A DNA stretch of 64,000 nucleotides from Desulfobacterales bacterium. GTDB taxonomy: Bacteria > Desulfobacterota > Desulfobacteria > Desulfobacterales > 4572-123. This document shows positions 1 to 61,857 of the stretch, in pieces. Position 1 is the first letter of the stretch, and every line of letters starts with the position of its first letter. The translations under genes were made by a program, and so were the position numbers. A model generated the notes under the pieces. That model saw only the letters and a program-made list of their open reading frames with translations, did no database searches and was not told where the DNA came from. The stretch is taken from the NCBI GenBank assembly GCA_029939715.1, contig JAOZSJ010000003.1:1880-65879 (forward strand). Reading direction: 5' to 3'.

Positions 1-1080
1 AATATCATCAGCCCCGCTGCCGCCAAGGATAATGTCATCACCGGCATTGCCGTATATCACATCATCTCCGGTCGCAATTGCAAAAGCTCTGATAATGTCA
101 ACAGCACCGCTGCCGTCTATCGCAACCTGGCCGTTATCACCCACCAGGATGTCATTGCCGGAATCTCCGGTTATTTCATCACCTCCGGCCCCGCCGAAGA
201 TAATGTCATCATCCTCGTTACCGGCCAGGGTATCATTGCCGCCGGCCGGTGAATCAATATTCAGAGTCCTTACTGTCCGGTCGCCCCATTTATCGATAAC
301 GGCGATCCCAACGTCGCCGATTATCGTATCTTTGCCGCTGTTACCGGTTATGCAGTCATCCCCGCTGCCGCCGAAAATAATATCGTTGCCGGCATCTCCG
401 GTTATGCTATCGTTGCCGTCGTCAAGCCGGCCAAGGGCTTTAGCAACAAAGCCGTCATCCTCGCTGAAAAGAACAGTTCCGTCATCTCCAAAAAGGAGAT
501 CCATACCATCACCGCCCCGGATCAAATCGTCTCCGGCCTGCCCGTAAACTATGTCATCCCCGCTCCCGGCCCGGATCACATCATAAGTTCCGATTGCATC
601 GTCGGTGACGGAGACTTGAGTTGCATATCCACCTTCCAGGCGATCGGCATCCGGTTCAATGATTCCACCATCTCCCAAAATCACATCATCTCCCTCACCA
701 CCTGTCAGGGTATCGGCTCCGGTGTCGCCGATAATGACGTCATCCCCTTCATGTCCTGCGATCTCGTCCTCATCATCGCCGCCAAAAAGAAAATCGTTGC
801 CCATGCCGCCGGAAATAAAATCCCCTCTGCCGTTTTCAGAACCGGCGGATGCAGCGCTGACAAGGTTTTCAACAGATTTTTCAACAATCCTGTCACCGTC
901 AAAGATGGTTATGAAATCATCTCCGAATACAACCTCCCCGGCATCACCGAAAAGCATCATGTTCTCTGTCCAGTTTTCACTTTCAACGGTGCCGATCAGG
1001 TCATTCCCGTCTCCGCCGAAGACAACGGCAAGCCCGTTTTCATTTTCGCCGTCATCTTCAAGAATACAGGTGTCATCCCC
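1..1080 (-). repeat. RTX-type Ca-binding nonapeptide repeats running off the window edge
   Basis: Hand translation of 1-69 gives GDDVIYGNAGDDIILGGSGADDI. Hand translation of 661-831 gives GRGDFISGGMGNDFLFGGDDEDEIAGHEGDDVIIGDTGADTLTGGEGDDVILGDGGI. Confidence 0.85.
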
Positions 1081-4000
1081 CTGATTCAGCCACACAAAGG
1101 TTATATCCTCTGCCTGAAGGCCGTATATGTACACGATATCGTCGGCCTTGCCGGCAAGGATATGAATGCCGCCGTCAAAATTGCCGTCGGCATCCCAGGT
1201 AATCACCGCCGGCGCCAGGCCGGTAATACTGCCGTGTTCTATTTCAGCCAAGGTGTCTGCATCGTCATCACCGGCATCACTGATATTCAGCATATGCCGT
1301 CCCTCTCCGGCATGGATAGTCAAATCCCCGGTAATCAGATCAAGGCTGCCGTTTTCAAGACGGGTATCAGAGGAGATATTGAAGATCTCGTTTCCGTCGT
1401 TGCCGCTGATGGTTGTAACGGCAGTCGTTCCTGTTACATTAAAAATGTCATTTCCCGAACCCAGTTCAATATCCAGGGTCTCGATGCCGTAATATACAAT
1501 GCCGTGGGCCATGGCCGTGATCTTGACCGTTCCGATCATGTCCGCGGAAGTATCGATGAAATCGATAGATAGATCTTTACAGCTCCCCATGAATGTAATC
1601 CGGTATACAGGCCCAAGAGAGGTAATCACGATATTTTTTGTGTGGGGCAGATCATCATGCGCATTATTGGGATTCAAGATGGGATCAAGGGCCGCAAGAA
1701 TATCTTCTGCTCCCGCATCAACGGAAATTTTCTCCGTCCACAAATCCATTGTTCCGTCATTGACAACTCCCCGGACATGCAGTCTGTAGGTACCCCGGGC
1801 CGCTTCAACCGAAAGGATCTGGGCCGTACTCAGATAAGGCCGGTTCGTTCCGTCGTGAAGCGTGCCGGTTTTTACAATAACCGAAGCATTCAAAGCGGGT
1901 ACCAGAGCTGTCGTATGGATATCCTCGGCCCATTTGATCTGAGCAAAATCATTGCCTGCCAGTTCACCGCCGAAGAGAATCGTAAAATTTGTATAAACAT
2001 CGGTTTCCAGATTAACCTGAATACTGTCGGAACCGTACAGCGCCCTGAGTTGAAATGCGATCTCATCTGCCGTCATGCCGTAATCCAGCAGCAGGGTTGC
2101 AAATCCGTAATATCGCGTGATCCTGTCGGTATCCGAAAGGCCCGATTCCCTGCCGCAGCCTTCAGCCGACAGGAGATAACTGCCCGAGGCCGCCTGGACA
2201 TACACCGTCTGAACCTCGGCCACGGACGGCATATCCAGCCCCGTCAACGTGGTCTGCGTCAGTGTGCCGATATCATCGGTTGTGTCATTGCCGTCATCGA
2301 CAAACAGTTCATCTTCACCTTCGCCCCCGGCAATTGTAAGCAGTGCCGCGATACGGTCCACGTATTGATCCTGGCTGCCCACATTGATCGTATCACTGCC
2401 AATGCCTGTATCAACGAGGGTATAACCGGAAACCGATTGAATATAAAGGGTATCGTCTCCATCGGCGCCAAAGACAGTGGTCAGGCCCTCATGGGTGGAT
2501 TCAATGGTCAGATTATCACTGCCGGAGCCCAGTTCAAGGTTCATCTCCTCCATATTGGCATAACGGATTCCGCCGGGAACCGGCCTGTCTCCGATCATGG
2601 TATCAGGCCCCATGCCGAAACCGTAAAGGCTGCTTTCGGTCAGGGTGCCTTCATCATTGGCCGGGCTGTTTCCGTTGTAGATGTTCAACGTATCCACCTG
2701 GTCTGCTTCATCCACCCTTACATTGGGATTTACCGGAGTATAAAAATAGGTATTACTACAGGCCACATAGCCGGTATCGATCCTCAGGACGGCGGAAAAG
2801 CCATCTCCGTTTACATTGGTGATTACGATATTGCTGCTGTTCTGTCCGGATTCGGCCGTATATCCATTGGCGTAATCCAGCTTGCCCGCCAGCCTGGAGG
2901 CCATTGACTCAAGGTCATCATCTGTTTTAACCGTACAGCCGTACTCTTCACCGTCGAGCACCATTGTCCATATCTCGCCCCTTATGACATTACCGCTCAG
3001 ACTGAAAGAGAGCTGTTCATCATTGCCGTCTTCATCCGTACTTGAATCCAGTTCTGTTTCGCTGACAGGCTCCAGCGTTATCGAAAAATCATTTCCGTCT
3101 GTATTCCTGATAGCAATTTCGCTGTCGCGGGCATCCGCTGCAAAACCGTCAATATCGCTTAACTGATCTGCCAGGGCCAAAGCCACGGTTTCAAGGGTCT
3201 CGGTGATGCCGCCTGCCGTGTAAAATGCGGCCGGTCCGGTTTCATCATTTATAAATATCCGCCAGGTCTCACCTGCGGCAGCATCACCGGTGAGCGTCAC
3301 CGTTCTGGCTACAAACAGATCGTTTACATCGATATCAATACCGGCCGCTGTAAAGGCATCTTCCCAGGATGTAGTAAATATTACGGTATCACCGATCACC
3401 GAGGCCGCCTGCATGACAATCCCCCGGGCCGGGCCGGCTGTGAGGACAAATTCATAGGGATTGTCGTTCATGCGGGGATCAAAGCCATCCATGCGGCCCT
3501 GCTCCGGATCGATGTACCAGGCGCTGGTATCGGTCAATGTCGCCTGCTCCTCACCATCGGCATTAACAATGGTCCCGGCGGTCAGGATATAACCGTCAGG
3601 CACATACCAGTTGGTTTCTCCGGGCAGGGTGAAGGGATCATTTAAAAACTTTTCCTCGCTGACCTGTATGCCGCCGTCGATGGCAAGGGGCCCCCGGATG
3701 CTGTTGATCCGTTCATTCATTGCAGGGAAAACCCGGGCATCACTTCCATCTACAACGTCGTCATCAATTCCCGAAACAAGGATCGTCTGGGGAAGATTCC
3801 AGTTTTGTGTGGTAAACACTACCTGGGGGATGACGGTCAAAAAGCCCGTACCTGCTGAATCAACCCGGGCATGAACTGTAAACAGCACCGGTTCGTCAAG
3901 CTGGTAGGTACTGACGGTCAGTGTATCGGCAGCCGTATCAGGTGTTGCCGAGTACCGGTTCAGGGCACCGGCCAGGCCGATGGCCACATCTTCTATGGTA

Positions 4001-7000
4001 TCATTTTCCTTTACCGTATAATTATAAGAGACGCTGTCTAATATAATGATCCAGGTATCCCCCGCTTTAACAGGGCCGTTCAGGTCAATGGTTTGAGCAT
4101 CGGCATCAAAACTGCTGAAGGAGCCTGCCGGTACGATATTGTAAGACAGGTTCATGTCAATACCCGACAGACTGGTGAGCACAACTGTGCGATCCTGTGA
4201 ACCGGCGGTCAGATCATTTCCGGACACCGCGTTTATAAGGGCGGCGAAACTGCCTGCAACGCTTTGTGCAGTGTCGTCTGTATCAATGACATACAGATAC
4301 TCGATGCCGTCTATCGTCACTGTCCATTGTTCACCGGCAACCACATCCGCCAGCAGTTCCACTGAGACCGAAGCCACTGCGGAAGCATCGACCTCACCCG
4401 ATCCCGTGGGGGTAACTGCACATGCCAGGGAGAACACCTCTCCTGCTTCACTGGTTACGGTGATGGTGTCGGCATCTGTATCATAAACCGCTGTAAAGCC
4501 TTCGACTGCATCCAGAAGAGATGCCAGCCGATCCCCTGCGGTATCCAGTTCCAGCGAATCTCCATTTGCCCCGCCCACATAAACATATTCATTTCCGTCC
4601 AGGGTCAGAGTCCATGTTTCATCCGCGCGTACCGGGCCGCTTAGAAAAATTTCCTTGATCCATTTTGTATCGGTGCCGAGGACTTCTCCGCTGCCTGCGG
4701 AAGATACCGTGCAGTACATGTCGAAATAATTTCCATTGAAGCTGGAAATTGTAATGATGCGCCCCTCGTATCCTGCAATAAAGCCATCCTCGGCATCCAT
4801 CAGGCCTGCCAGAATTGCCGCGATCTCCTCAAGTGTCTCGCCGGCGGTTACCGTGTGGCTGTAATCTTTACCGTCCAATGTTGCTGTCCAGTTTTCACCG
4901 GCAAACACCGGACCTGTCAGGTCAAGAGTCCGGGTCATCACTGCAAGGCGATTTACGACCACGGCATCTTCAAGGTCCGAAACAATCATGCATTGAATGT
5001 CGGCAGAGCTCAATCCATCTATATAAAAAGTAATTTCAGAACCATCTGAGCTTGCGACGCCATCGGGCTGCCGTGTTATAATTTCCGCCAGGCGTGTAAT
5101 GACGGCATCGATATCATCACCTGCCTGCACTTCATAGGCATAGGCAACCTGGTCCAGCATAATCGTCCAGATATCTCCGGGAATAACGGGCCCGTCAAAT
5201 TCGATCTTTGCCTGCGGAGTTGCCACATCCACCTGGACAGCTTCATTTTCACCGAAATTTGCATCCGGATCAAAGGCCAGGTCGGAGTTATAGGTCCGGG
5301 TCACCCGGGGAACAACATCTACGGCCACATCGCTTTCAGGCTGGAGCGTCAATACTATGTCATAGCTGTCCGTGACCGGGTTATAACCGGGGAATTCATC
5401 TTCCATCAGATAGGTTATGATAAAACGGCTCTCATCGGCTGAAAGAGTCTCCCATTGCCCGGTGCCCGGATCAACGGTATATTTCCTGGTAAGTGGGTCA
5501 TAGCCCATAATTATTGCAGTATTGCCGGTCCCGGGGCCTTCAACCACCGTAATCTGTTTGCCGATGAGTTCTACTGCCTTGGGATTTGTGGCATGCCGCT
5601 GCAGAGAGAGATTCAGTTGATATGAAAGCCCTTGGGCCACACCCTGTTCATAATCCGCATAGGGGATTGAAGGCAACGGCCCGGGTTCCATATAATGCAC
5701 CTGACTTCCGAGGCGGATGATGTAAAAACCGGCCCGGTCAAGATCAAACTCCAAAAATGGATCGTTGATGGAAAGGCTGCCTGCGTCAGGTACTGAAGGA
5801 TATACACCATTGAGAGGCTCCACCGGTGAAAGCACACCGCTTGAACCCATCAGATCATCAAAGGTTCGGCCCTCAATATCTGTTCCAGCGTCTACTCTGA
5901 ACAGATCAACACAGGGCCTTACGGTATAGACAACAGGAACCGGGATCATGCCTATCCCCGTATTATAATCATATATGGAGTAGCCCGTGAGATAGTTGCC
6001 CCTGTCAATATCTATAACGCCATGGACGGTTCCGCCGCCCCTTGTCACTTCGATTGTAAACGGTTCTTTTACGCCTTCTTTATCTTCAATAATAATTTTT
6101 TTATTGGAAAGCCGGCCGCCTGTGTTCAATCGGGCACTGTAAGTTGCCGCCGTATCTGCGTTGACAGCATCAACCAGGGCCAGTTTTACACCATACAGAT
6201 TCTTTAAAGGATCGGCCAGATCGGAAGTATTGCAGCTGTATGCCCTGCCGTTTACATAAATGGTCCAGAGCTCATTGGACTGGTAATCACCAAGCAATTT
6301 AATCGCTGCGCTGAAATAGTGCTTCCTGGCGTCAATCACCGATTGATCAGAGTCTATATCAAGGGCATCATGCAGACTGTGGTTGACTGAACTGATAAAA
6401 ACAGGTTCACCGTCGTCGGTATTGACGGTGATGGTACTGCCACCGTCCACATTTGGATTAAAACCGGAAAGGATTTCATCCGCCAGCCCCAGGGCCACGT
6501 CATTCATCGAGGTGTCTCCGGCAGCTACCTCATAGGCATCAGGATCGGCATTTTCGATGGTGACGCTCCAGAGATCGTGCGCTTCAACGGCAGCCCCGTT
6601 GTCCAGAACGATATCGCTGTACCAGAACAATAGCGGTGTACCGGACATTTCACTGCCACCTTCAATATCGGCTGCTGAGATATCACCGCTCAGGTCAATG
6701 CCCGCCGTATCATGATAGATCACCATGAACACTTCATTGCCGGCATTGCTGAAAATATGTGTGTCATAACCGGTGATACTGCCGTCAAGACCGTCCGCAG
6801 CATCGGATATATCCGCATCTGACGCGGATACGGTGTAATCATAGGTATTGACGTCCACGGTAACGATCCAGTCCTGTCCCTCATAAACTTCGTCCGTGTC
6901 CGTGTCGCCCAGCCGCAATGTTCCGGCATAACCGGTTTCACTGACAGCTCCCGAAGAAGATGCGGCGGTAATGTTCGCTGCCGTCAGCACGAGTGGCCCG

Positions 7001-10000
7001 CTGCAGGTAATACCGATGGTGCCGCCGGCAGTATCGGCAACAGGCGAGTATCCGCCGTCGATATCCCCGGCAAGGCCGGTGACTGCACTTGCAAGGGTGG
7101 AGCCATCGGTTTCATTGGCGGTATAATCAAACGACGAACCATCCATGTTTACAGCAAAAGTTTCACCCTCGGTAACATCGCCCCCAAGCAAAATGCTAAA
7201 GGTACTGGCAATCCGGATCTCATCGGTTCCAGCCGGGCTTGCATCTTCAGTTCGACTGTCCGCACTTAAGGCACCAAACGTTCCGGATCGTGAAATCGTT
7301 ATCTGACTGCCGGAAACTGATGTTGCGTACTGTGAAGGCAGGCCGGTTGAAGCGGCTGCCAGTCTGGCCTCAAAACTTGCCGCCACATCCGCCAGACTTG
7401 CATCAGCGGCAAGTGGCGTATGGGAATACTCGATGCCGTCAAGTGTAATGGCCCAGAGGTCATCGTCATCAAAATCTCCGGTCAGGGTAAAGGTTCCGGT
7501 CCAGTCCGTATAATCGATCGTGCTTTCGATATCCGCCTGTTCCACCTCCAGGGCCACTGTGAAGGTATCTTCGGAGCTGTTTTCAATCCTGATCACCCCG
7601 GGCTCATCCACGGTTCCGGGACCCTCCGCCGTGTAGGCGGTATACCGGATCGTGCCGTCGTTTATTTCCTGTGCAATGCCTGCTGCGACATCGTCTGCAG
7701 TGGTATCTTCCGCCGGTACCAGCCAGGAAAATTCATCCGTGCCGCCCAGGGTCAGTTTCCATGTCTGACCTTCATACACATCACCTTCAAACTCCACCAG
7801 GACAGATCGACGGTCCAGGCTTATGGTATCGGCCACCGGCGCGGCTATGATTTCAAAATCAATTGTAAAATCATTCCCGCGACTGTTTGCAATACTGAGT
7901 GCATGATTCGAGCCGGCCGCCACTTGTGCAGAATAGGGCCAATGGATCTCGGCGGCCAGGCCCGTGGCCACATCAGCCAGGGTTGTATTACCGCCCGGCA
8001 CAATATACTCGAAGGTATGCGGAGCTCCGGCTGAAGTATCATCCAGGGTCACCTGCCATGTTTCACCCTTTTTGACATCACCGCTTAATTCCAGCTGCAT
8101 TTCCACCCATTGAATACTCTCTATCACGGCTTCCGTCTGAACCGGTGTACCGCTGATATCCGCCCTGCCCGCGGGAGATGGGCCCTGCAGGGAAAAACTG
8201 ATGGTAAATCCGGCTGTATCAGATAGTGTCAGGGTGTCGTCTCCGGACCGAAGCGGTAAATAGTCATGATATGGATGATAATTTTCAATTTCATTGATAA
8301 GACCGTCTACAATGCCTTCAGGTGTCGGCGAATAACCGTTTTCTCCGGCGGTAACCGCATAGGGCGTATCGTTCAGTGTCAGGGTCCAGATCTCACCCTG
8401 GATCACCGGCCCTGAAATCTTAATCCGCGATTCGGTGAATTGAATCAGCGGCGTTCCGGTACCTGCAGGTGTTGTTACATCCGTTCTTCTGACCACAACT
8501 CCGGCATCCTGCCCCAGGTGGCTTACCCTGTCCACCCGGACACCGTTTTCATTGACGATAATTAAACTTCCGCCATCTGAAAAAACCTGAACCGGTTCAT
8601 CGGCAGCCGGGTTGTCATCATACTGTGCTGTCAGTACCGATGCCAGGCCGCCGGCCACATCGGCCGGCACTAAGTCGGTTTCCTGCACCTGGTAAGAGTA
8701 ATCCACGGCATTGAGCCGTATAGTCCAGACATCTCCGCCGGAAATCGTATCACTGTCATCAAGCAGATTCACCCTTACCCGGGTGTAATAGGTCTCATCG
8801 TCCGTGATTGTCCCGTTGCTTAAAATATCAGCCGCCTCCGGGACAAGCATCTCCTGTGTTACTTCAAACAGATAATAATCCCATGTGCCGTCTCCATAGC
8901 CCTGGATCTTGGTATAAGGCGTGTCGGAATTGATGGAATCGCCGTTACCGATCCGGGTGTCATAAAAAGTATACCAGTAGTAGGTATCCTCTATATCCTG
9001 AATATTCGCATAGCCCTCATTTTCGGAAACCGGATCAGGAGCAAACAAGAATGCATCCACATCGTGGTTTTCCATGGACACCTGCAGTTCATAGTCGGTG
9101 CCGGAGGGCAGGCCAAACCCAAGCCAGTTGTCTATTTCAAGATAATAATCACCCGCCTCGTAAAATGTGTATTCCATGTAATCATCAAGCCAGGTCGTGC
9201 TGCCTTCTCCACCCGTTGACGGGTTGGACCAGCCCTGCCCCTGTTTGACCAGGCGTGGTGTCCGGCTCCCGTCTTCATTGTCGATCATTTCATACAGTTT
9301 GAAACGGCTTGCCCATAAAATAGAATCGGTGTACTCAAACCCGTGATCCATATCAAAAACAGCATCAATGCCGGGAGAACCGCTGTCCAGGGCATCCCGG
9401 ATCATTCGCTCTGTTATGGAAAAGGCGTAGAAGGCGGACTCATCGTTTCCCTCGCCCTTGATGGTCAGGTGCGGAATGGCCGTGGACATATTGATTTCAT
9501 TATCAAAATTCATACCCCACATGCCCATGTCAATATTCTGGGCCGTATAGGCAGAGGTGTTGTATCGGGTGCCGTATATGACGGAAGTGCCGAAATCCGC
9601 CTCAAACACAGTGTCGGAATCCACAGACCGCACCTGTCCTGTTCCAAGTACCACCAGGCTGGTGGGCTCGGCTACAGTGGTCGTTCCCCCGGGCTCGGTT
9701 ACAAGGACACCGCCCGTGGCATCATCGGCAATCATGACATCCACGAACGACAGATGGAGGGTCTGGTTATTTACACCGGCCGTATAGGAATACTCTGTGC
9801 CGTTCAGTTTTACCGCCCAGATATTCCCGATATTTACAGGACCCTGAAGCTGGATTGTAATCCGGGTGAAATGGTTCGAAGGTTCCGGGTCTGTCAGGAT
9901 AACGGCATAATCCTGCGGGGCCGCGGTGATGGTAAAGCTGCTTCCATCAGCGCGGCTGAGAATGATTGTATCTGGATGGGTTGAATCAACATATGCGACA

Positions 10001-13000
10001 TAGTTTGAATCTCTGTTAATTTTTTCGGCCAGACCCCCGGCAATATCTTCAAGGGTATCTATACCTGTCACAACATACTCAAAAACATCGGTTGAATCGA
10101 TTGTAATAGACCAGGCATCGCCGGCCAGAACCGGACCATCGAGTTCAACAGATGCGATAAAGGCGGTATCAAAATCGGTCAGGACCGCACCCTGCAGCCT
10201 TGACTCGTCAAATGTAAACGTCGGGCCCCGTATGGTTATCGATGTGTTAGGATCGGAACTGCTGATGTCGGCTGTAAAATTTTCATACACGTTGCCCTGG
10301 ATCTTTTCAGACAGGCCATGGGCCGCATCTGCCGGCCCCAGGTTGAAATATGCTGCATACTCAGCTTCGCTTATATCGTGCGTAATCCGTGAGTAGTGTA
10401 TTCCCTCCACCTCATATCCGGCAGCATCGGGGGCAGCCTTCACATAGATATCCCGGGGGGTGTTCCAGTCTGCCTGGTTGAATTCCAGGCTCAAGATATC
10501 GGAAAAACCGGTGGATGCGGATGTTGACACCTGGGACTGGCTGTCGGTTTCAACAGTAATTTCAACACTGTCTGCTACAGCCCGGGTCAGTACGACCCTG
10601 TACCTGTCACTGCCCGTATAAAGGCCGGTATCGGCAAACTGATCATCTTCGCCAATCACCGTACCGGTTGTATGCTGGATCACCAGGACATCCGCGGTAT
10701 CATTGTCTATTACCTGAGCCGTCACGCCTATAACCGCCAGGCCGTCATATTCGCCGCCGTCATCCGGAATTGCCCCCTGAATAACCGTATGCTGGATATT
10801 ATAGTACCGCCGGCCTTCGGCAATCAGGTCTTCGGGAGCCGACACGGTCACGGTCTGGGGAATAAACCAGTTGGTCCGGTCAAACAGAAATGTGATACCG
10901 TCGCTGCTGCCGTTGAGTGCTATACCGGCACTGCCCGCCTTTTCCTCGGACTCGGTGGGCCTTGCGGGCGTTGCCGTAACGCGTACGCTCTCTACTGGTG
11001 ACCGGGTCAGAACGATCTGGTACCGGGATTGAACAAGAGTTGCAAATCCGGCGGAAGTATCCTCAAAAACCCGAATCGGACCCTCAACCATATCAACGAT
11101 GATACCTGCCTCGTCATTATCCACTACATTGGCGGAAACATCAGGGATGAACAGACCGTCAAAAATGGGATCATCGCTGAAGATGGTATGATCGATCAAC
11201 CCGCTGTGTCCTTCAAGGTCATTGCTCACAACGGTGATTGGATCGCCGTCGGTTCCTCCTGCAATATTAAAGGTGTCGCTGCCAAGTCCGCCTACAAGCT
11301 GGGTCTCCACATGCTCACTGGTGCCGGCCACATAGAACCGGTCGTTACCTTCCAGGGCATCCACCACGACCTTTTCAATGCCGTTATAGGTAACAAACAG
11401 GCCGCATCCCCAGACACCTTGATCCGTCACAACAATATCATCTCCAAACTCGGTGCCCACGATTGTCAGCGTATCATACCCGTCGCCGCCGGCGACCCGC
11501 ACCGGCGCGTTAACAACATAGGAGATAAAATCCGCGCCCTGCCCCCCGTTGATATTCGTATACGGGGCTTTGGGATCATTGGGGTCGACCTTTACAAAAG
11601 CCCTTACCCTGAAGGTATCGTCATCTTCCTCTCCGTAGAGGTACAACTCAGCCTTGTTGGCATATACTGTAAAACCGTCGTTTCCGATTCCGCCGTATAA
11701 GATTGTCGGAAAACTGATACCGTTGCTGAGATAGCCACGGGTGGTATGGGTGGTTTCAAACCAGTCATCTTCGGTGAGCCCGGCAGATCCATCCCGCGGA
11801 GACTTGAAGACCTGGCCTATCTGAAAGATATCGTCCCCGGCATCACCGTAAATAATGGTGGCGGAACTGTTGTCATCCAGGACAAAGGTATCATCTCCAT
11901 CCCGGCCGAAAATTCTCAGGCTGCCGTTTATGTCCCCGTTATAATTGACCCTCTCAATGGATCCGTTTTCAACTGGATTGCGAAATTCATCAAGTTCGAT
12001 GCAGGCAACCATATTCGGACGCATGAGAAAATAATCAGCCCTGTTCGTGCCGAAAATATCCAGCAGGTCGACATTCAGGTCATTTTCAGGAGTCTGGTCA
12101 TATACATCGATCAATGCCGACCCCTCGCCGGCCAGGCCTACCTGGTAATAATCACCGCCCGCCTGACCATGAAGGGTCAACGTGCCGCCGATACCGTTTT
12201 CATAGGTCTGATTCCCGGAAATATTATAGTTGGCCCGCAGGATGTCATTGTTATCGCCGGCAAAAATTTCGGTGGCCCCTGCAATACTGCTTATGTTGAT
12301 CGTGTCATCACCGCTCCCGGTATGCAGGGTTGTGGACCAGGCATGGGTGCTTTCGACAAAAAGGTTGTCCTCACAGGAGCCGAGCCATACTTCCAGATCT
12401 TCGGCTCCAAAGTAGAAAACCGCCCCTTCCATGCCAAAACCCGTAAAGGATGTTTCCGTCAGAACTCCTGTCTGGCCCGCGGAATCATCAGCTCCGGAAT
12501 TATCAATCCGGATATCATCCGCTCCCGTGCCGGTATTGACGGAAAGCGTGTAGCGGATATCCGCCAGTGTGTTTCCAAAAGGAAGCCCCGGTGACACGTC
12601 AACTTCATTTCCGATAAGAACTGAGTCGTCTCCTGTATTTGTGTTGACGGAACTATCTGTATTCTCCGCGATACTGAGTATATTAAAGGTATCACTGCCG
12701 GTTCCAAGGGCAATGTTCAGATCCTCAAGATTCCGATATCCGATTCCCGATGCCATATCAAGACCGGCAAGGAAACTGCTGCTCAACGTTCCGGTATTAT
12801 CGTTTGTATCCCCTGAATCATCGATATCCACCCGGTCGGTACCCGATCCGCCGTCAATATCAAGCAGGGCGTCTATACCGTCCACCCAGGGGTACCGGTT
12901 CTCATTTTCGTCCACCAGGATGTCAGTCACATCCGTCGTATCATCACCACCGCCGGTATTAACGGCAGTGAATCCTGAAATCGTCCTCACGTAAACAGCG

Positions 13001-16000
13001 TCATCGCCGGCAGTCGTATTGACTACGGACTGCCCTGTATGCGTGCTAATCAGGTCAATCGTGTCACTGCCGCTGCCGGTGGTGAATTCGACATATTCGA
13101 GATCGTCATACAGGATGTCAAAAGAGATGCCGCCACTGCTTGCAGCCGCGATACGGTAAAATGAATATTCAGTCTGAACCTGATCCGCATTTGTATAGTA
13201 GGCCTGCTCCCCGCCGAAGTATAAAACAGGCTCGTTGCCAAGATAATATCTCGCATCTCCGGCACTGTATGTTGCAGGGCTCCAGCTTTCGATGAGGGCC
13301 GGATCACCGCCCGGGGCAAGTTCATAGACGATATCGCCCCTGCCGTGAAAAACAGGATCACCGGCTTTGTCAATGATCGTATCGGCAGTAAAAAGTATCA
13401 CATTGTCGTCATCATCGAGGCGGATGCTGCCGTAGATGTCAAGGACTACCTGGCCGATTGCAACCTGTTCATCCCCGTAGTAGTATGCCGTCTCGCCGCC
13501 TTCATATGTCAGATGATTTCCATTCCGGTCCAGCACCGGGTCACGGCGGTTATGAATCATTGCCTCGCCTGCAAGGTGTACAAACAGACTGCCGTCGCCG
13601 TTAAAAACCTGATTGCCCTGCTCATCAAGTACCGGCTCTCCGCCGAAATAACGGACAACATCACCTGCAAGATGCAAAACAGGATCGCCGGCCATGTGCA
13701 CCAGCGCATCGCCGGCCTGATGCAGAACGCGGTTACCGAACATATCCCGGACAACCTCGCCGGTAAAAGGATTCAAAACAGGATCACCGGCCTGGTAAAC
13801 TTCTCCGGTATAGGGATCGATCTGCGCGTCGCTTTCATAAAAAAGCGGCTCAAGTGTTTCAAAATCTACCTTCTGTTCTCCGCCGAAATACAACCTGGGA
13901 TCGGCATCTATGTCACCCGCGTAATACAGCGGAAGTCCCTGGGCATCATACCGGTCCATGCCGGTTTCACAAGTGTCAAAGGATACGGAAAAATCGTCAC
14001 CTTGCTCTGCGCCGTTAATAATAAGGCTGTCGGCATAATCACCGGTTGTGATACGGTAATCCCTTGCAACAGTAAAATCCGACTTCTGGGTACGAAAAAC
14101 GGGAATAACCGACGGGAGGTTAGCCTGGTCCGCTTCATCATCATACGCGTCAAGGGTTTTGTAACCGTTTGAATTGACATATAAGAAATCTCCGTTTTCA
14201 AAATCGGTTGCAAATGACGGGTTGCCGGTGTTTAGGAAAACTTTCCGAAACTCACCGTCAAGATATAAAGGACTGCCGGAGTGATCATCGGTAACCGTTA
14301 TTACCGGCACTCCGGTATCGGTGAACACCGGATTTCCATCAACGTCAAAATAGAGCGGCAGCCCCCCGGCAGTTACAGTATCGATGGCCGGCACACCCGT
14401 ATCAACAGTTGTTTCTTCATTGTTTTCATCAATGAAAAGCAGATTACCATCCCCATCCGTCCTTTGAATCCCTCTATTTTGGACACCGGTTTCCTGCACC
14501 CCCTTTTCATGGACAAGATCCTCATAGACAGCGCCATTGGGATCGATGACAACCGTATAAATTGCAAGTCTGTCGGTACCACTGCCGTCATCTTCTTCAA
14601 AAAGGATAGGGGCCAGCTCAGGCAGCTCATAATAAACCCTTTTACCTGCGGTATCGGTAAAATAAAGAGTTCCGGTGGGGGCTGAGTGAATAAATGCATC
14701 GGGAACATTATTCAGCAGTTCATAATACTCATCCAGCTCCATGGAAAGAAATTGTGCATGCTCGGCCGCGGTAAGATGGCTGACTCTTTCATCGATATGA
14801 TCATCGCCGAAAAATAGAATCCGGGCTGCCAGGTTATCCAGCATGCCGTTATCGGAAACATGGACACTGTCTTCACCGCTGCCGCCAAGAATTATGGTCT
14901 GATCACCTGTCTGTTCGATAAAAATCTCGTCATTGCCGGGTCCTGCGGCAATGAGCATCTCCATGCCTGCAAGCATCTCGCCATCGGATACAACATCCCG
15001 CCCATTGATATAGGCATAAGTGTCGGCCCGGGCCACTGCAAAAGAGTCATTCCCGTCGGCAAGCCTTATCTGCAGATCTTCAATGCCCTCCACTTCGATG
15101 CCGAAATACCTGACAGTATCCACGCCCCGGCCATCGGGGAAACCGATCCCCTCAAGGCTCAAAAATGTATCATACAGGTACTTGCCGTCCTCATCGATTC
15201 CCTGTTCAAAAAGAGGATTGCCGTACTGGTCTTCACCGATCTGCTCCATACGGGAGGTGATTCTGTTGGCCAGGAGACCGGCCTCCGACGACCCCTCCTG
15301 GTTATGGATAATGAGTCTGTCACCACTTGTTTCATACTGGTCCCCGCCATCTATCTTGAGGCGCCCGAGAATATTGGAAACATTATTATTCCCTTCGGCC
15401 CGAAAGGCAAACGGCGGCGGGTCCACCGTCACTTCAGGGGGCTGCACCGTCTTTGATCTGGGCTCGAGCCGGCCGATATAACAGGTGAGTTCCAGATCAT
15501 GTACCGTTATTTCAACATATTCTTTGGACCAGAACCAGAAAGAGTCGTATTTGAATCGCCAGGAAATACCGGCATAGGCCATATCCGACGATGTAAATGC
15601 AAAATAGGGGTATGCATTCGAGATGCTCGCCATCAGGGCGCTGAAATAATGTTCCGCCGCCGCGTCCGGGGTATTAAAGGTAAAATCGGCAAGCTCAATC
15701 TCAAAGGTATAGCTTGCCAGGGACCATGTCATCGGCGTGTATACAAGTTCGGGCGGCAGATCGATTTCAAAGGCCGGCGGCTGATAGGTATAGGCCGGCG
15801 GGTCAAAAACAATCGGCGGCGGGTTGCCGCCCACATGAATCGTGTCATCTCCGCTGCCGCCCACAACCGTGGTTTCCACATTTTCATCGGAACTCAGGAT
15901 ATAGATTTCATCGGGTCCGCCGCCCCCGTCAACTTCAATGGATTCGATATTCGAAAAGTTGGTGATCCTGCCGGCACCGGCAATATAGGTATTGGTAATC

Positions 16001-19000
16001 ACGAACGTATCGCCAATGGGAGTACCGATCACAACGATGGTATCGATGCCCGGGCCGCCGTTTATCTCCACCGGCGCATTCTGCAGGTAGTCGTAGCGGT
16101 TGACACCGGCACCGCCGAAAAGGGCCGCCAGGTTTGTCACTTCATCAGGATTGTCCGCGTTCTCCTTGAGCACCAGGAAGGTTTTAAGCAAAAATTTATC
16201 ATTTCCCGAGCCGCCGTGCAGATACAGCTTGGCCCGGTTGTGATTCACCTCCATGCGGTCGTTCTGGCCCTGCCCCATGACAAAAAGAGGTGCACTGTTG
16301 CCGTTTGTCATATTCTGAGTATCCGCCACGGGAACGCCTTCGGGATATTCCAGGGTCCGGTTGCCCGTGTCCGGTATCAGGGGAACAGTACCGATGACAA
16401 TTTCGTCATCACCGCTGCCCATATTGATGATGGTCACAACTGCCGTGTCATTGGACAGGAACAGATCATTACCGGCGCGGCTGTTGACGGAAACACGGTC
16501 AATACGCCGGAAGGTAATGATGTTGCTTTCATCGGCAGATCTGCTTTCAGCGGTAATCCGGCCGGTACGGAAGGCACCTGAGCCTGCGGCATCCAGTGTC
16601 ATGATATCGGATTTGGATGTTCCGTTCACAATCAGTTCATCAAAACCGGAATCACCGGAATCGTCAATGCTGTATCGGGTTCCGCCGTCAGGGCTGATGT
16701 TTATGATAATGTATTCCCGCAGTCCCCCCTGCCCGCTTTCATTGCCCAGGTTGTCGATACTCACGGGGCCGGTCCAGGCACCGGCGGAAACAAAGGCACT
16801 GCCCACATAGATGGTATTATCCATATCGCCGACAACGATAACATTGCAGCTGTTGCCGCCGGTTATAAACGCTTCTTCAAAAATATTATCGATATCTTCG
16901 AAAATTGCACCTGCGGCAAAATGATCACCGGTATCTCTTAATGTAAGATCGGGATCATCCTCCCTGACCCGTTCGGCCAGGTCAAAGGCCGTATCAGGGG
17001 CCTGTTTCAGAAAACTGCCGCCGGTATCACCCACTATGGTGCCGGTAACAAACCCTGTATCAAAAAGTGACATATCCCGGTCCTGAGCCTCAACCAGAAT
17101 ATCATATCCGCCTTCATCGATGAATATATCAAGACCGTCGCCGCCGGTCACCCTGTCATTGCCCTCGCCGCTGTGCAGGATGTCGTTATAGGGTGTACCG
17201 ACCAGTTCATCATTATCTCCGCCGCTGTGCAGTTCCAGTGCCGTAAGATCGGGGTAGTGCAGATTATCCGAACCGTCGGGGTCACCCATTCCCCCGAAAT
17301 TAAGAATATCATCCCCGGCGCCGGTCCAAATTTCCAGAGCGTCCCCTTCAGACCGGACAGAACCGGAAAGTGCAAATTCCATTACCCCCACACGTGAAAT
17401 CAGGACATCCTGCATCCAGGAGGAGCCGCCGGAACCTTCACCGGCATTTCCCAAGCGTCCCATGAAACTGTCATCGCCTGCACTTCCCATGACAATCAGT
17501 TTATCTGCAAAATTGTCGTCATGGAAAACAATATCAGGCACCTCAACGCTGAATCGATCTTCTGTTGTAGAGCTGTCTCCATCCAGATCTTCGATCACCG
17601 TTTTTGTGCCTGCAACCTCCATATGCTTTCCAAAATCAACAGAGAGTTTGGTCATACCTGATCCGACAAGATCCTGAGCCGTGATCACATCGGCACCTTC
17701 GCCGGCGTCAATGGCCAGTTCCCGGACCCCTCTTGCATAAATGTTTCCGCTGTTTAGAAATTCAACCAGGACCTGGTTTAATCCCGGTGTGGAAACCCTG
17801 AGATCATCATTTCCAGAAGTACCCGTGATGACCAGATAATTATCATCGGCATCGGTATCATCCGCATCCACCGTGCTTCCAAGGTCGCCGGCCCCGAGCC
17901 GGATCAGGTCATTTCCGCTGCCGCTTGTAATGGTATTGATGCCGCCGCCGCCGGTTATTTCATCGTCACCGGTGCCGGCATTAATAATATCGTCTCCAGT
18001 GCTGCCCGTGATCTGATCGTTGCCGATACCGCCAAAAAGGCCGGCAAGGCCTGAGCCGGTGTGAATAATGTAATCATCGCCCGCATCACCGTTGATCACA
18101 ACAGCACCGGAACATGAGGTTTCCAGATAATCGGCTCCGCTTCCGCCGTTGATGACGGCACTGGAATCGCCGTTATAGATAAGAATGTCCTCACCATCGC
18201 CGCCGTTTAATTCCACCGGGACAAGAACGCCTTTCCTGATAAAAATACTGTCATTACCTGATCCTGCATCAGCATGGATACCCGTTACATGCTCATAGGT
18301 CCGGCTGCGGCCCATGGCACTTACCTTTATGGTGGCATCCGAAGCGGTCCCCCCCACCTGCTCCACGACATAGGCTTCATCTGGCTCATCTTCAGCCAGG
18401 TTCCGGTACTGCCCACGGGAGCCCATATTCAAATACAGTTCGCCGCCGCTCCAGCTTCTTGCCGCATCCTGAGAAGTGCCGGCATCACCGGCCAGCCAGA
18501 CGGGCCTGGGCAGTTCGAGGTAGCCGATGGTAAAACGGGCCGTCTTTTTGACTTTAACAAACAGGATCTTGATCTTGACGGTGACACTCAGCTGGATCTT
18601 GACCCGGCCGGTTCCCTGGGCACTGAAGGAAAAGCCGAGATCCAGACCGGCCAGGGTAATGCCAAACACCTTGGCCTTGACATGGGCCGATCCGGAAAGT
18701 TCAAAACGATAATATGAATTCCCGGTGGCATCGACAATGCTTTCGGATACAATATGGAAATGAAATCCACCGGAAAGACCGAAGGAACTGGAACCAAGGG
18801 TAAAATCTCCGTTCAGCCGGATATCAAAATTCCCTCTCGAATCAAGGTATCCGCTGCTGTCAAGGGTGGCCAGCCCGAAAAAACTGATGTCCGCATGAAA
18901 ATCAAAACGCCACTGTCCTCCACTCACCAAGACACTGAAGCCTGCATCGAATTTCAGGATCTTGAGGATCTCAACGTGACCTGAAAGCGACAGGTAAAAT

Positions 19001-51019: not shown

Positions 51020-51693
51020 TCACAGCTCCCTAATAAGAGATCTGGCCGTCTTCCAGAGCCCTCTCCTTTCTTCAATTAACTCGCGCAGTAATCGCACCCT
51101 GTTTTCAGTTGACCCGCCATATTCATCCGTCCGATTGTTGGTTTTAGAAGATAAAAAAGGTGAAATCAAATAGTTGTGGGTTGCATACACATAAATGATA
51201 TCAAAGCCGGCGGTTTTGGCGCGCCTGGCAGCAGCCACATGCCATCTCCGAATTTTTTCTAATCGGATTTCCCCATAATACTGCTTTGAACCGGGTCATT
51301 GAATACGGCCGGTCTGCTGTATGCTGCCAACGGGGCCTCACGCGAATATAAATTCGCAACCTGATGCCCGCCATGCCATGGTTCAACGCCTGCCAGTGAT
51401 CCATGTTCATGCACCTTTTCAACCATTAAGGCGTTTGCTTTAATGTCTTCTTCATCCCAGAGACAGGCATGCGGATACGGTATATCTTCTGAAGTAGGAT
51501 GGATAGAACAGTATTCCGTATTAACGACACCCCAGCCCCCTTCCGCCTTCATTCCCCGCATCGCAGCGAGTGTATTGGGCATTCTGTAACCCATGCCGGT
51601 GGCATGAGGCACCTGATAAAATCTGTTTTTTGCTGTGACCGGACCTATTTTTACCGGTTCAAATAATATATCAAAGTAGGGACTGCGAGTCAT
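51020..51693 (-). pseudogene. Frameshifted and 3'-truncated Old-Yellow-Enzyme-family flavoprotein gene, closest in my recollection to the N-terminal domain of trimethylamine/dimethylamine dehydrogenase
   Basis: ATG at 51693 with an AAGGGAG RBS 5 nt upstream. [36 protein letters not shown]...AEGGWGVVNTEYCSIHP parallels the TMADH N-terminus ([23 protein letters not shown]...KAEGGWAALNTEYCSI). That frame stops at 51259-51261 (..MGKSD*). The homology then continues in another frame (LEKIRRWHVAAARRAKTAGFDIIYVYATHNYL...NNRTDEYGGSTENR) and ends at 51020, around residue 225 of an expected >600 aa. Confidence 0.75.
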
Positions 51694-51776
51694 GAAAACT
51701 CCCTTGTATTTATTAATGTTATGTACTTTCACCTGTTTTGATATCTTTGACAAATGTGGCGGAACCATCGACATTA

Positions 51777-53207: not shown

Positions 53208-53332
53208 AATTACCTCTTTAAAAATGCTAATATTGTAGTGTGACTAAATTTAAGGAATGTTTCCTGCCTGGTTTGAAATTCATAACCTGATGTTTTTTGA
53301 TAAAAAGCACTTACATATCCTTCTTTATTCTT

Positions 53333-54469: not shown

Positions 54470-54504
54470 ATTTTTCTCCTTTTCCTTTAAAGATAAGCTT
54501 TTGG

Positions 54505-54580
54505 CTTTTAGCAGTTAGCCATTAGCTAAATGAATCCTTTGTCATTTCGAGCTTGAAAGCCAATAGCTAACAGCTAAAAG
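54505..54580 (-). repeat. Imperfect 23-bp inverted repeat (CTTTTAGCAGTTAGCCATTAGCT ... AGCCAATAGCTAACAGCTAAAAG) forming a long stem-loop 5 nt after the stop of the MttB gene at 54585
   Basis: The arms lie at 54505-54527 and 54558-54580 and pair at 20 of 23 positions by my alignment. No U tract follows on the minus-strand RNA. Confidence 0.55.
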
Positions 54581-54584
54581 TTAA

Positions 54585-56018: not shown

Positions 56019-56054
56019 AAATATTCCCCAATAATAGATACAATTTTTTCTTGA

Positions 56055-57422: not shown

Positions 57423-57446
57423 ATAAAAATTCCCCCGGTATTCCAG

Positions 57447-58574: not shown

Positions 58575-58591
58575 ATTAAATTTTTCCTGTC

Positions 58592-60288: not shown

Positions 60289-60344
60289 TTAATTTTCTCC
60301 TGGAAATAAAGCCCTTAAAAACCTGAAGCCTGCAGTAAAATTGA

Positions 60345-60390
60345 TGCGGCGGACAACAGAAAGTTCCTGTCCGCCGCACCGGTTTTTTTT
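60345..60390. terminator. Perfect 11-bp stem hairpin (TGCGGCGGACA / TGTCCGCCGCA, 12-nt loop) flanked by T8 on the plus strand; a possible intra-operon attenuator or bidirectional terminator between the binding-protein and permease genes
   Basis: The stems lie at 60345-60355 and 60368-60378, with the T run at 60383-60390. On the minus-strand transcript the hairpin is followed only by UCAAUUUUAC. Confidence 0.5.
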
Positions 60391-60415
60391 GTTTCATCAA
60401 TACGGATTAAAATGC

Positions 60416-61543: not shown

Positions 61544-61567
61544 TGTTGCCTCCAAGTTTATGGTTAA

Positions 61568-61597
61568 ATTAAAGTGGGACATGTCCATCATTGTCAA
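61568..61597 (-). promoter_or_regulatory. Candidate sigma-70 promoter of the transporter operon (-35 TTGACA, 18-bp spacer, -10 TTTAAT) with a 10-bp palindrome GGACATGTCC in the spacer
   Basis: Minus-strand sense reads TTGACAatgatGGACATGTCCcacTTTAATttaaccataaacttGGAGGcaacaATG. The -35 is at 61597-61592, the -10 at 61573-61568 and the palindrome at 61577-61586. Confidence 0.4.
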
Positions 61598-61780: not shown

Positions 61781-61857
61781 GACAGAATGATGTAACATTT
61801 TTAGGGAGGAGATTCCGCAACTGTAACCGCTATCCCGCACCTGGGACAGAATGATGT
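61781..61857. repeat. Two copies of the 13-mer GACAGAATGATGT, 64 bp apart, upstream of the transporter operon
   Basis: Exact copies at 61781-61793 and 61845-61857. Confidence 0.6.

What the first reader, a model, noticed from the sequence alone, without database searches (positions are those of the whole stretch)
2930..10200. Second large array: about 18 copies of a ~100-aa Trp-centred module, interrupted by two ~320-aa PPC-like inserts
The motif G(E/D).W.(V/L/I)T(L/I)(D/N)G..Y.(Y/H).V recurs every 270-330 nt. Each copy is followed by an (V/I)A.GLA..(I/L) helix-like segment. The Trp positions are listed in the feature entry, and three copies were verified by hand. The array is broken at 5,280-6,250 and 8,800-9,790 by domains with GDYYLEI...DYELQV or GFYIIRL...SYQLNL motifs reminiscent of pre-peptidase C-terminal (PPC) domains. 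It is also broken at ~3,300-3,900 by a domain with the ...FTTQNWNLPQTILVSGIDDD... motif. I cannot place the Trp module in a known family.
Basis: seen in the sequence. Interest (0 to 1): 0.6.

Follow-up and report, generated by a model that had tools for sequence, protein, structure and literature searches.

The report
Nested repeat modules in giant adhesin
The repeats are real. They lie on the minus strand inside a single gene of about 17,000 codons for a giant bacterial surface protein, where an uncatalogued ~95-residue domain related to phage-tail and flagellin decoration domains buds out in variable numbers from four fixed sites of a conserved multi-domain head.

Summary
Window 50781..1 is one stop-free ORF of at least 16,927 codons. 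It has a LEPR-XLL N-terminus and RTX repeats at the end, and comes from a Desulfobacteraceae MAG.

My own HMM finds 18 Trp-motif units at window 10179..2752. Seventeen are complete modules. The eighteenth is an N-terminal half, and its C-terminal half sits upstream at 10335..10228.

The module matches no Pfam or NCBIfam model, but it is a real family: 1,676 representative proteins across many phyla. AlphaFold gives a confident beta3-alpha-beta3 fold (pLDDT 89). Fold and profile searches link it remotely to accessory domains of phage nozzle, sheath and baseplate proteins and to the Flagellin_IN motif.

The "inserts" are not interruptions. They are conserved host domains, always in the same order:
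- A ~130-residue C domain.
- Segments S, Z and Post.

X2 and C3 are split, and the Trp arrays sit inside their loops. Copy number changes by whole modules among homologues (0-5, 0-10 and 7-13 at different sites).

This extends the "split domain" principle known from RTX adhesins, so I rate it a new variant of a known kind. Function is inferred, not shown: a multivalent or decorative adhesive head.

The parts
1..50781 (-). Giant ORF of at least 16,927 codons from Met. It runs off the window start. LEPR-XLL N-terminus; RTX nonapeptide repeats in the last ~280 residues (window about 1-833).
   Evidence: Stop-free frame. Gene called in three assemblies as 16,864 or 17,004+ aa, each cut by a contig end. 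NF012209 LEPR-XLL, 30 bits against a cut-off of 17. HemolysinCabind E 7e-27.
10375..11178 (-). Two complete copies (C1, C2) of a ~130-aa unassigned 'C' domain. Motif: VxDND...YxVVLTRxP...FxxxNWxxPQxVxVxAxxDxxxEG.
   Evidence: Own HMM, E 1e-41 and 8e-35. No Pfam or PDB sequence match.
10228..10335 (-). C-terminal half of a Trp module (helix + beta4-5) directly after C2. This is the first piece of a circularly permuted module at site 1.
   Evidence: Module HMM positions 43-74, E 5e-4 locally. The same half-module is at this place in 12 homologues.
9889..10179 (-). Trp module 1 (complete), site 1.
   Evidence: HMM E 1e-28. AlphaFold model pLDDT 88.9.
9763..9885 (-). N-terminal half of a Trp module (beta1-3 with the Trp).
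   Evidence: Module HMM positions 2-44, E 4e-16. The remainder of 'copy 2' matches the C-domain HMM.
9655..9765 (-). C3N: the N-terminal third (HMM positions 10-46) of a third C domain, which is split.
   Evidence: E 1.7e-5 locally. The equivalent piece lies before X1 in P0005, P0006, P0023, P0033, P0060 and P0068.
9064..9567 (-). X1: a complete PPC / collagen-binding-domain-like jelly roll, about 165 aa. It contains GDYYLEI...DYELQV.
   Evidence: AlphaFold pLDDT 90.7, pTM 0.87. Foldseek top hits 4hpk_B and 3jqw, the ColG/ColH CBDs, E 4.6e-6, TMt 0.69. Pfam PPC sub-threshold in 11 of 22 homologues.
8836..9024 (-). X2N: the first third (profile positions 4-61) of a second X domain.
   Evidence: E 6e-7. 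The same piece is present in 12 homologues.
6013..8793 (-). Nine complete Trp modules nested inside X2 (site 2).
   Evidence: Homologues have 7-13 modules here and never none.
5587..6012 (-). X2C: the remaining two thirds of X2. It starts with VIDIDRG (compare AVFDMDHG in X1) and contains GFYIIRL...SYQLNL.
   Evidence: profile positions 107-162, E 4e-6. When X2N and X2C are joined, the alignment runs continuously across the splice, positions 4-76 at 41 bits, against 30 bits for X2N unjoined (positions 4-60).
5383..5586 (-). S: a small conserved segment of unknown fold (LxGKxItIxxGxGxGQxaxIxxYDP...).
   Evidence: Part of insert 2, which is conserved in about 50 homologues. No Pfam or PDB sequence match.
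5236..5382 (-). C3M: the middle of the split C3 domain (DSYDIVLTLQPESDVAVDVVP...).
   Evidence: C-domain HMM positions 50-76. Alignment to homologues in which this piece is contiguous with C3C.
3835..5235 (-). Five complete Trp modules nested in the C3 loop (site 3).
   Evidence: The gap at this point in homologues is quantised: 9-22, 91-102, 194-221, 252-305 and 354-385 aa, against 467 aa here.
3712..3834 (-). C3C: the C-terminal part of C3 (VVFTTQNWNLPQTILVSGIDDDVVDG).
   Evidence: C-domain HMM positions 93-123, E 1e-5.
3331..3711 (-). [not shown]
   Evidence: Insert 3 is conserved in about 40 homologues, with E down to 1e-59. No Pfam or PDB match.
2752..3330 (-). Two complete Trp modules between Z and Post (site 4).
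   Evidence: Homologues have 0, 1, 2, 3, 5 or 10 modules here.
1612..2751 (-). Post: a conserved ~380-aa region that follows Z directly in homologues with no modules at site 4. It leads into the RTX block.

Best explanation
The region is the distal 'head' cassette of a giant (about 17,000 aa), very acidic surface fibre that is probably exported by a type I system. It lies just before the C-terminal RTX block.

**Scaffold.** The cassette is a conserved set of globular domains in a fixed order: C1, C2, C3, X1, X2, S, Z, Post. X is a PPC / collagen-binding-domain-like jelly roll.

**Module.** The Trp module is a ~95-aa beta3-alpha-beta3 insertion-type domain whose two ends lie close together. It is distantly related to the accessory domains of phage nozzle, sheath and baseplate proteins and to the Flagellin_IN motif.

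**Arrangement.** Arrays of the module bud out of four fixed sites:
1. The C2|C3 linker, where the array is in a circularly permuted register.
2. A loop of X2. This site is always occupied, with 7-13 modules.
3. A loop of C3, with 0-5 modules.
4. The Z|Post junction, with 0-10 modules.

C3 itself also carries X1, X2 and S nested inside it. The arrays therefore form side branches or loops on the head. They do not lengthen the fibre.

**Status of each step.**
- Shown: the architecture, the splits, the whole-module copy-number variation, the folds and the remote relationships.
- Inferred: adjacent termini, re-assembly of the split halves, export by T1SS.
- Inferred function: the head is a multivalent binding or decoration device, with the X domains as candidate Ca2+-dependent ligand binders.
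For: - **ORF and termini.**
- **Modules.** 18 units found only in this region. Family of 1,676 representative proteins in Methylophilaceae, Thermodesulfobacteriota, Gaiellaceae, Gemmatimonas, Methylomirabilota, Planctomycetota and Elusimicrobia.
- **Conserved order.** The inserts are conserved at E 1e-29 to 1e-74 and keep the same order in homologues.
- **X2 split.** The X1 profile hits positions 4-61 right after X1 and positions 62-162 about 700-1,300 aa later, in 12 homologues and here. The alignment is continuous when the two pieces are spliced.
- **C3 split.** Its three pieces complement each other at positions 46/47 and about 77/93, and the domain is continuous in P0014, P0060 and P0068.
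- **Whole-module gaps.** Gaps at sites 3 and 4 are quantised by whole modules, including single-module insertions into a 9-22-aa loop. This requires the module's ends to be close together.
- **Permuted register.** C-half + n full modules + N-half, with n = 0, 1, 2 or more, in 12 homologues.
- **Module fold.** pLDDT 88.9. It matches the P-SCSP1u nozzle (TMq 0.71), the Bas63 baseplate (0.69), tail sheaths, flagellin p5 and FliD, and BFVD sheath, baseplate and tubular-B proteins. Profile hits E 3e-5 to 7e-3. The family consensus carries an Ile-Asn pair, as Flagellin_IN does (PMC9751261).
- **X fold.**
- **Precedent.** RTX adhesins bud ligand-binding domains with adjacent termini out of split domains, sometimes at several levels (PMC12077191).
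- **Composition.** pI 4.05, 16% Asp+Glu.
Against: - Re-assembly of X2 and C3 and the adjacency of the module termini therefore rest on sequence complementarity and indel logic.
- The C-terminal secretion signal and any T1SS genes lie outside the window and outside every contig found. The upstream neighbours are metabolic genes.
- The LEPR-XLL N-terminus is not the classical LapA/MpIBP retention module.
- No ligand or binding site is identified. The conserved Trp may simply be a core residue.
- The links to Flagellin_IN and Phage_nozzle are sub-threshold, in 3-4 of 61 modules.
- The S, Z, Post and C domains have no assigned fold.
Confidence: 0.7

Rival explanations
1. One reading: a simple in-line extender array, like the BIg repeats of RTX adhesins, that lengthens the fibre and is occasionally interrupted by unrelated PPC-like domains.
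For: The tandem head-to-tail arrangement. A weak profile match of the beta-hairpin part to the MpAFP RII BIg extender repeats (1.9e-7 summed, about 0.8 per repeat). Giant adhesins usually contain extender arrays, and this protein has one at aa ~600-8200.
Against: The flanks of each array are complementary halves of single domains. Single modules can sit in a 9-22-aa loop. A circularly permuted register occurs at site 1. The predicted fold has a helix and is not Ig-like, and its best structural matches are insertion domains of phage and flagellar proteins.
Confidence: 0.08
2. The obligatory 7-13-module array inside X2 forms a defined closed superstructure, such as a ring, rosette or cage clasped by the re-assembled jelly roll. 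On this view it has a structural or mechanical role (for example a shock absorber or a shield for X2) rather than a binding role.
For: Site 2 is never empty, whereas the other sites can be. The first and last modules of that array keep positional identity across homologues. Half-modules complement each other across an array at site 1.
Against: The number of modules varies (7, 9, 10-11, 11, 12-13) and the interior modules show no positional orthology. This argues against a fixed stoichiometric ring. No structural model is available.
Confidence: 0.15
3. The modules are recently acquired, phage-derived tail-decoration domains, or the locus is part of a phage-tail-like or contractile system rather than an adhesin.
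For: The best fold and profile matches are phage nozzle, sheath and baseplate proteins. Pfam Phage_nozzle is sub-threshold in 4 of 61 modules.
Against: Only the ~80-aa accessory domain is shared, not the sheath, nozzle or baseplate cores. The window has no phage genes. The modules are old and diverged: identity of the other copies to the first is 16-37% and there is no DNA repeat. They are embedded in a LEPR-XLL/RTX protein conserved across phyla.
Confidence: 0.03

Closest known systems
Split-domain / ligand-binding-region architecture of RTX adhesins (MpIBP, FrhA, AhLap; PMC12077191, PMC10865825)
   Same: A giant acidic repeat protein with a long extender array, a varied domain region just before the C-terminal RTX repeats, guest domains budding out of split host domains, and multi-level nesting.
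   Different: Here the guests are tandem arrays of 1-13 copies of one module rather than single ligand-binding domains. The hosts are a PPC-like jelly roll and an unassigned 130-aa domain rather than Ig-like domains. One site uses a circularly permuted module. The N-terminus is LEPR-XLL, not a LapA-type retention module. T1SS genes were not seen.
Flagellin_IN motif (PF07196): the beta-domain of Sphingomonas flagellin p5, FliD D2/D3 and the T4 gp11 finger domain
   Same: A beta-hairpin, helix, beta unit with a central Ile-Asn pair after the helix (PMC9751261). Foldseek hits to 2zbi/3k8w and to FliD 5h5v. Three of 61 modules give Flagellin_IN hits, best E 1.1e-4.
   Different: The module is longer (~95 aa against ~53), has its own GExW signature and is not in a flagellar protein. 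None of the 18 modules in this window hits the Pfam model. TM to flagellin is only about 0.44.
Accessory (outer) domains of the phage nozzle / tail tubular protein B, tail sheath and baseplate wedge (8i4m_A, 8kee, 8fop, 9ndy, 9zdk_S gp76, Phi92 gp130)
   Same: These are the best fold matches, TMq 0.6-0.79, and the only significant profile-to-sequence matches, E 3e-5 to 7e-3 over about 75 residues. In those proteins the matched stretch is internal, for example residues 161-236 of 806.
   Different: The phage proteins carry one copy on a structural core. Here there are 17 or more copies in arrays on a bacterial surface protein, and sequence identity is 10-20%.
PPC / bacterial pre-peptidase C-terminal domain (PF04151), including the ColG/ColH collagen-binding domains
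   Same: The X1 model matches 4hpk_B and 3jqw (E 4.6e-6 to 3e-4, TMt 0.62-0.69) and the Tk-SP and KP-43 C-terminal jelly rolls. It shares the D-x-Y-x-F and G-x-Y-x-h-x-V ... Y-x-L-x-V motifs. Eleven of 22 homologues give sub-threshold PPC hits.
   Different: X is about 165 aa against about 70-115 aa, with an extra helix and loops. The window's own copy gives no Pfam hit even at E 10. X is not attached to a peptidase, and the second copy is split by a ~930-aa insertion.

Membership tests
RTX adhesin (T1SS-exported giant adhesin) | C-terminal RTX nonapeptide beta-roll repeats | tested here: met
   HemolysinCabind E 7e-27 with 8 stretches in the last 917 aa. NCBIfam RTX-type hits.
RTX adhesin (T1SS-exported giant adhesin) | C-terminal T1SS secretion signal and adjacent ABC/MFP/TolC genes | not testable with these tools
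   The ORF runs off the window, and every assembly found is cut at a contig end.
RTX adhesin (T1SS-exported giant adhesin) | Long tandem extender region | tested here: met
   Self-similar array at aa ~600-8200. Its fold was not determined.
RTX adhesin (T1SS-exported giant adhesin) | Ligand-binding region with guests budding from split domains near the C-terminus | tested here: met
   Split X2 and C3 shown by complementary profile coverage. The principle is described in PMC12077191. Ligand binding itself was not tested.
RTX adhesin (T1SS-exported giant adhesin) | N-terminal LapA/MpIBP-type retention module | tested here: not met
   The only N-terminal match is LEPR-XLL NF012209. Pfam finds nothing in the first 2000 aa.
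Flagellin_IN (PF07196) | Match to the Pfam model | tested here: not met
   0 of 18 window modules at E<=10. 3 of 61 family members match, best E 1.1e-4.
Flagellin_IN (PF07196) | Central conserved Ile-Asn pair | tested here: met
   Family consensus LAaaINA: Ile 60-63% and Asn 46-48% over 1,198 modules. The feature is described in PMC9751261.
Flagellin_IN (PF07196) | [quoted passage not shown] | tested here: inconclusive
   Foldseek E 8e-3 to 3e-2, TMq 0.42-0.46. Phage accessory domains match better.
PPC (PF04151) | Match to the Pfam model at the gathering score | tested here: not met
   No hit for the window's X1 or for either insert at E<=10. Eleven of 22 homologues are sub-threshold, best E 0.0015.
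PPC (PF04151) | Jelly-roll fold of the collagenase CBD / pre-peptidase C-terminal domains | tested here: met
   Model pLDDT 90.7. Top Foldseek hits are 4hpk_B, 3jqw, 3afg and 1wmd.
PPC (PF04151) | Position C-terminal to a secreted peptidase | tested here: not met
   No peptidase domain anywhere in the ORF.
Calx-beta (considered for the C domain) | Match to a Pfam model or to a solved structure by sequence | tested here: not met
   The 16 C-domain copies give no Calx-beta hit at E<=10, and the profile finds no PDB chain at E<=1.

The most novel reading that the evidence does not exclude
This would be a previously undescribed way of building the tip of a giant surface fibre: a 'Russian-doll' cassette conserved across at least seven bacterial phyla. 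Arrays of a Flagellin_IN / phage-decoration-like insertion module bud from four fixed sites. They vary by whole modules between lineages, which would give tunable valency. One site lies inside a PPC-like jelly roll and always carries 7 or more modules. Another is closed by a circularly permuted 'clasp' module. The host domain C3 itself carries two further domains nested inside it.
Probability: 0.45. Interest if true: 0.7.

Novelty: new variant of a known kind. Interest (0 to 1): 0.55.

Why it matters
- **A domain family missing from the catalogues.** The module occurs in 1,676 representative proteins and about 1,200 copies in the 152 sequences examined, yet it is absent from Pfam-A (2025) and NCBIfam (2026). 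A large part of many giant 'hypothetical' proteins therefore goes unannotated.
- **Wider scope for split domains.** The split-domain principle, so far described for single ligand-binding domains in adhesins of a few pathogens and Marinomonas, would also apply to whole tandem arrays, to non-Ig hosts and to environmental phyla.
- **A practical parsing rule.** Look for complementary half-domains around an array before calling it an 'interrupted repeat'.
- **An evolutionary link.** It ties the decorations of flagellar and phage-tail surfaces to bacterial adhesin heads as one reusable insertion-type fold.

Tried and rejected
1. **Recoded stop codons.** With no large ORF in the ORF listing I first suspected an alternative genetic code. 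This was rejected: the minus strand has a stop-free standard-code frame that runs off the window.
2. **Word-indexed homologue search.** A search with four modules found only two proteins. The exhaustive profile search was needed.
3. **Pfam hits on homologues.** DUF7526, E1_FCCH, LysM and others had 0 significant stretches. I rejected them as repeat-bias sums.
4. **MpAFP RII BIg match.** Judged a local beta-hairpin resemblance, because the model has a helix where RII has strands.
5. **Direct tests of the inserts.** Pfam at E<=10, PDB phmmer, and BLASTP of insert 1 against insert 2 gave nothing or E 0.75. Only profiles built from homologues resolved them.
7. **Genome search with an alignment.** The single-protein scan found two MAGs but not the source genome.
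8. **Calx-beta label for the C domain.** This was my guess from memory. It was tested and not supported.
9. **Positional orthology.** Only the first and last modules of the X2 array keep position. This speaks against a fixed-stoichiometry ring.
10. **C-terminus and downstream genes.** They could not be reached. All contigs end inside the gene, and look-ups are limited to 5000 aa.

Full report
**1. Where the feature is**

The ORF listing shows only short ORFs across 2930-10200, which at first suggested recoding. Counting stops per frame resolved it. The minus strand carries one frame with no stop from window 50811 to position 1, 16,937 codons. The tool does not list it because it runs off the window.

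The same gene is called in three independent assemblies as 16,864 or 17,004+ residues, each time cut by a contig end. Translation starts at Met, window 50781. Neighbouring proteins are deposited as OQY08210-13 from 'Desulfobacteraceae bacterium 4572_123'.

The protein has these features:
- It starts with a LEPR-XLL motif (NF012209, 30 bits against a cut-off of 17).
- It has a first huge self-similar array at aa ~600-8200 and FG-GAP repeats near aa 6,700.
- It ends in the window with RTX nonapeptide repeats.
- It is very acidic: pI 4.05.

**2. The observation**

An HMM seeded on 13 motif hits and iterated once finds 18 units, each with E 1e-20 to 1e-29. All lie between window 10179 and 2752, and there are none elsewhere in the protein.

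They align along their full ~95 residues. Identity of the other copies to the first copy is 16-37% and mean column identity is 30%; the Trp is the only nearly invariant residue. There is no DNA-level tandem repeat, so the copies are old and are not an assembly artefact.

The three gaps are window 9579-8794, 6012-5236 and 3834-3331.

**3. The module is a real, uncatalogued family with a recognisable fold**

No Pfam or NCBIfam model matches the modules, even at E<=10.

The profile, scored against 1.84 billion representative proteins, finds 1,676 proteins at E<=1e-3 and 143 at E<=1e-30, with up to 27 copies per protein. These come from Methylophilaceae, Thermodesulfobacteriota, Gaiellaceae, Gemmatimonas, Methylomirabilota and Planctomycetota, and from Elusimicrobia and Planctomycetaceae MAGs. 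All are named 'hypothetical' or 'calcium-binding'.

The consensus over 1,198 modules is tvtLsGtv.aGEtWTvTLdG..ysYTV.agdTLadVAaaLAaaINA.agytAta..G.tLtIt...G..FT.

AlphaFold2 with the 18 paralogues gives pLDDT 88.9 and pTM 0.80, with topology b1-b2-b3-helix-b4-b5-b6. The fold and profile searches agree on phage and flagellar accessory domains:

| Search | Best matches |
|---|---|
| Foldseek against PDB | P-SCSP1u nozzle protein (E 1.5e-4, TMq 0.71), cyanophage A-1(L), PhiTE and Milano tail sheaths, a Bas63 baseplate protein (TMq 0.69), Sphingomonas flagellin p5, FliD D2-D3 |
| Foldseek against BFVD | Tail sheath, baseplate J/gp47-like and tail tubular B proteins, TM up to 0.79 |
| 61-module profile against PDB sequences | gp76 (2.8e-5), Phi92 gp130 (3e-5), the nozzle protein (3.4e-4), three sheath proteins (2e-3 to 7e-3), each over about 75 internal residues |
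| Single-sequence Pfam scan of 61 modules | Phage_nozzle in 4, Flagellin_IN in 3 (best E 1.1e-4), all sub-threshold |

The consensus 'IN' after the helix corresponds to the Ile-Asn pair that defines Flagellin_IN. The flagellin p5 beta-domain is already known to resemble a phage baseplate finger domain (PMC9751261).

So the module is a new family within a known fold class of surface accessory (insertion) domains.

**4. The 'inserts' are the conserved scaffold, and the arrays are nested in it**

A local phmmer search of the three gaps against the 151 homologues showed that each gap is far better conserved than the modules (E 1e-29 to 1e-74). They always occur in the same order.

*X domains.* A profile of the first ~165 residues of insert 1 (X1) hits three places in this protein and in 12 homologues:
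- the full X1 copy;
- immediately after it, a piece covering only profile positions ~4-61 (X2N);
- 675-1,283 residues further on, a piece covering positions ~62-162 (X2C), at the start of insert 2.

When X2N is spliced to X2C, the alignment runs straight across the junction (...FEVTQEMLVPEAAD|IGTVHGVIDIDRGN, positions 4-76, 41 bits, against 30 bits for X2N unjoined, positions 4-60). In the X1 model the split falls between the only long helix and the next strand. The nine modules at window 8793-6013 are therefore an insertion in a loop of a second X domain.

*C domains.* A ~130-aa 'C' domain occurs twice complete just upstream (window 11178-10375). A third copy is in three pieces:
- positions 10-46, before X1 and inside what looked like 'module 2';
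- positions 50-76, at the end of insert 2;
- positions 93-123, at the start of insert 3.

In P0014, P0060 and P0068, positions ~40-124 are contiguous.

*Copy number at each site.*
- At the C3 loop (site 3) the gap among 25 homologues is quantised: 9-22, 91-102, 194-221, 252-305 and 354-385 aa, against 467 aa (five modules) here.
- Between Z and a strongly conserved 380-aa 'Post' region (site 4; E down to 1e-107), homologues have 0, 1, 2, 3, 5 or 10 modules and this protein has 2.
- Between C2 and C3N (site 1), every homologue with modules shows a C-terminal half-module, then n full modules (n = 0, 1, 2 or more), then an N-terminal half-module. This is a circularly permuted register.

Single-module insertions into a 9-22-residue loop, together with the tolerated circular permutation, both imply that the module's N- and C-termini are adjacent.

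Within the X2 array only the first and last modules keep positional identity across homologues, and the array length varies from 7 to 13.

**5. Testing the PPC idea**

The window's own copies give no Pfam hit at E<=10. The two inserts resemble each other only weakly by BLASTP (E 0.75).

With 21 homologues, AlphaFold gives X1 a pLDDT of 90.7. Foldseek puts the ColG and ColH collagen-binding domains first (E 4.6e-6, TMt 0.69), followed by the Tk-SP and KP-43 C-terminal jelly rolls and C-CPE. Eleven of 22 homologues give sub-threshold Pfam PPC hits, and the profile weakly hits the collagenase CBDs.

The C domain matched neither Pfam nor PDB sequences, so my Calx-beta impression is not supported.

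**6. Mechanism and comparison**

In RTX adhesins, ligand-binding domains with adjacent termini bud from 'split' domains in a region between the extender array and the RTX block. Nesting can be multi-level (PMC12077191). This cassette occupies that same position and follows the same principle.

It differs in three ways:
- the guests are variable-length arrays of one module;
- a jelly roll and an unassigned domain act as hosts;
- one site uses a permuted module.

I therefore read the region as the adhesive or decorated head of a giant exported fibre. The X domains would be candidate Ca2+-dependent binders, and the Trp-module arrays would be lateral, copy-number-tunable lobes.

Export, binding and 3-D re-assembly are all inferences. 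The secretion signal and transporter genes lie outside all available sequence.

**7. Verdict**

- The feature is a new variant of a known kind: a split-domain adhesin head carrying a new family of a known insertion fold.
- Interest is moderate, 0.55. The nested, whole-module architecture conserved across phyla is unusual, and the domain family is unannotated, but the general principle and the fold class are already known.

Noticed in passing
window 1-50781 (- strand): The whole left 80% of the window is one gene of at least 16,927 codons. The ORF listing hides it because it runs off the window. Pfam and NCBIfam recognise only LEPR-XLL, FG-GAP and RTX in it, so more than 90% of the protein is unannotated.
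   Followed up: partly
window ~26200-49000 (- strand; aa ~600-8200): A first, much larger self-similar array, with 20-50 BLAST partners per 250-aa chunk at 38-51% identity and no Pfam match. It is interrupted by FG-GAP/FG-GAP_3 repeats at about window 30050-30800.
   Followed up: no
window ~17100-17300 (- strand; aa ~11180-11250): An internal RTX-type calcium-binding block far from the C-terminus (HemolysinCabind E 7e-7; NF046115 SMc04171-family repeat E 7e-16). It may be a budded RTX-like domain of the kind described for AhLap.
   Followed up: no
window 1612-2751 (- strand): The 'Post' region is a 380-aa segment with no family assignment that is very strongly conserved in homologues (E down to 1e-107). 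Weaker paralogous copies occur at aa ~12566-12887 and 16437-16532 of the same protein.
   Followed up: partly
window 51020-51774 (- strand): Between the giant gene and the MttB gene, other assemblies call two short Oxidored_FMN fragments (171 or 144 aa, plus 72 aa). This is possibly a disrupted old-yellow-enzyme-type gene.
   Followed up: no
window 51777-63955 (- strand): An upstream cluster: two non-Pyl MttB-family methyltransferases, a saccharopine-dehydrogenase-like protein, a DAO FAD oxidoreductase, a complete ABC importer (SBP, two permeases, ATPase) and a BTAD/TPR regulator. It looks like a quaternary-amine uptake and demethylation locus. GC falls from about 52% in the giant gene to 38-48% here.
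   Followed up: partly
L002 (JGI 3300005264 contig Ga0073581_100267): In this assembly the same giant gene is called as only 3,449 aa before the end of the locus, whereas two other assemblies,004+ aa. This suggests a frameshift or assembly error in that contig.
   Followed up: no
window 7221-6943 (- strand; module at aa 14531-14623): One module has Phe in place of the signature Trp (GETFAVNMDG). Across the family, Trp is present in about 75% of modules.
   Followed up: partly
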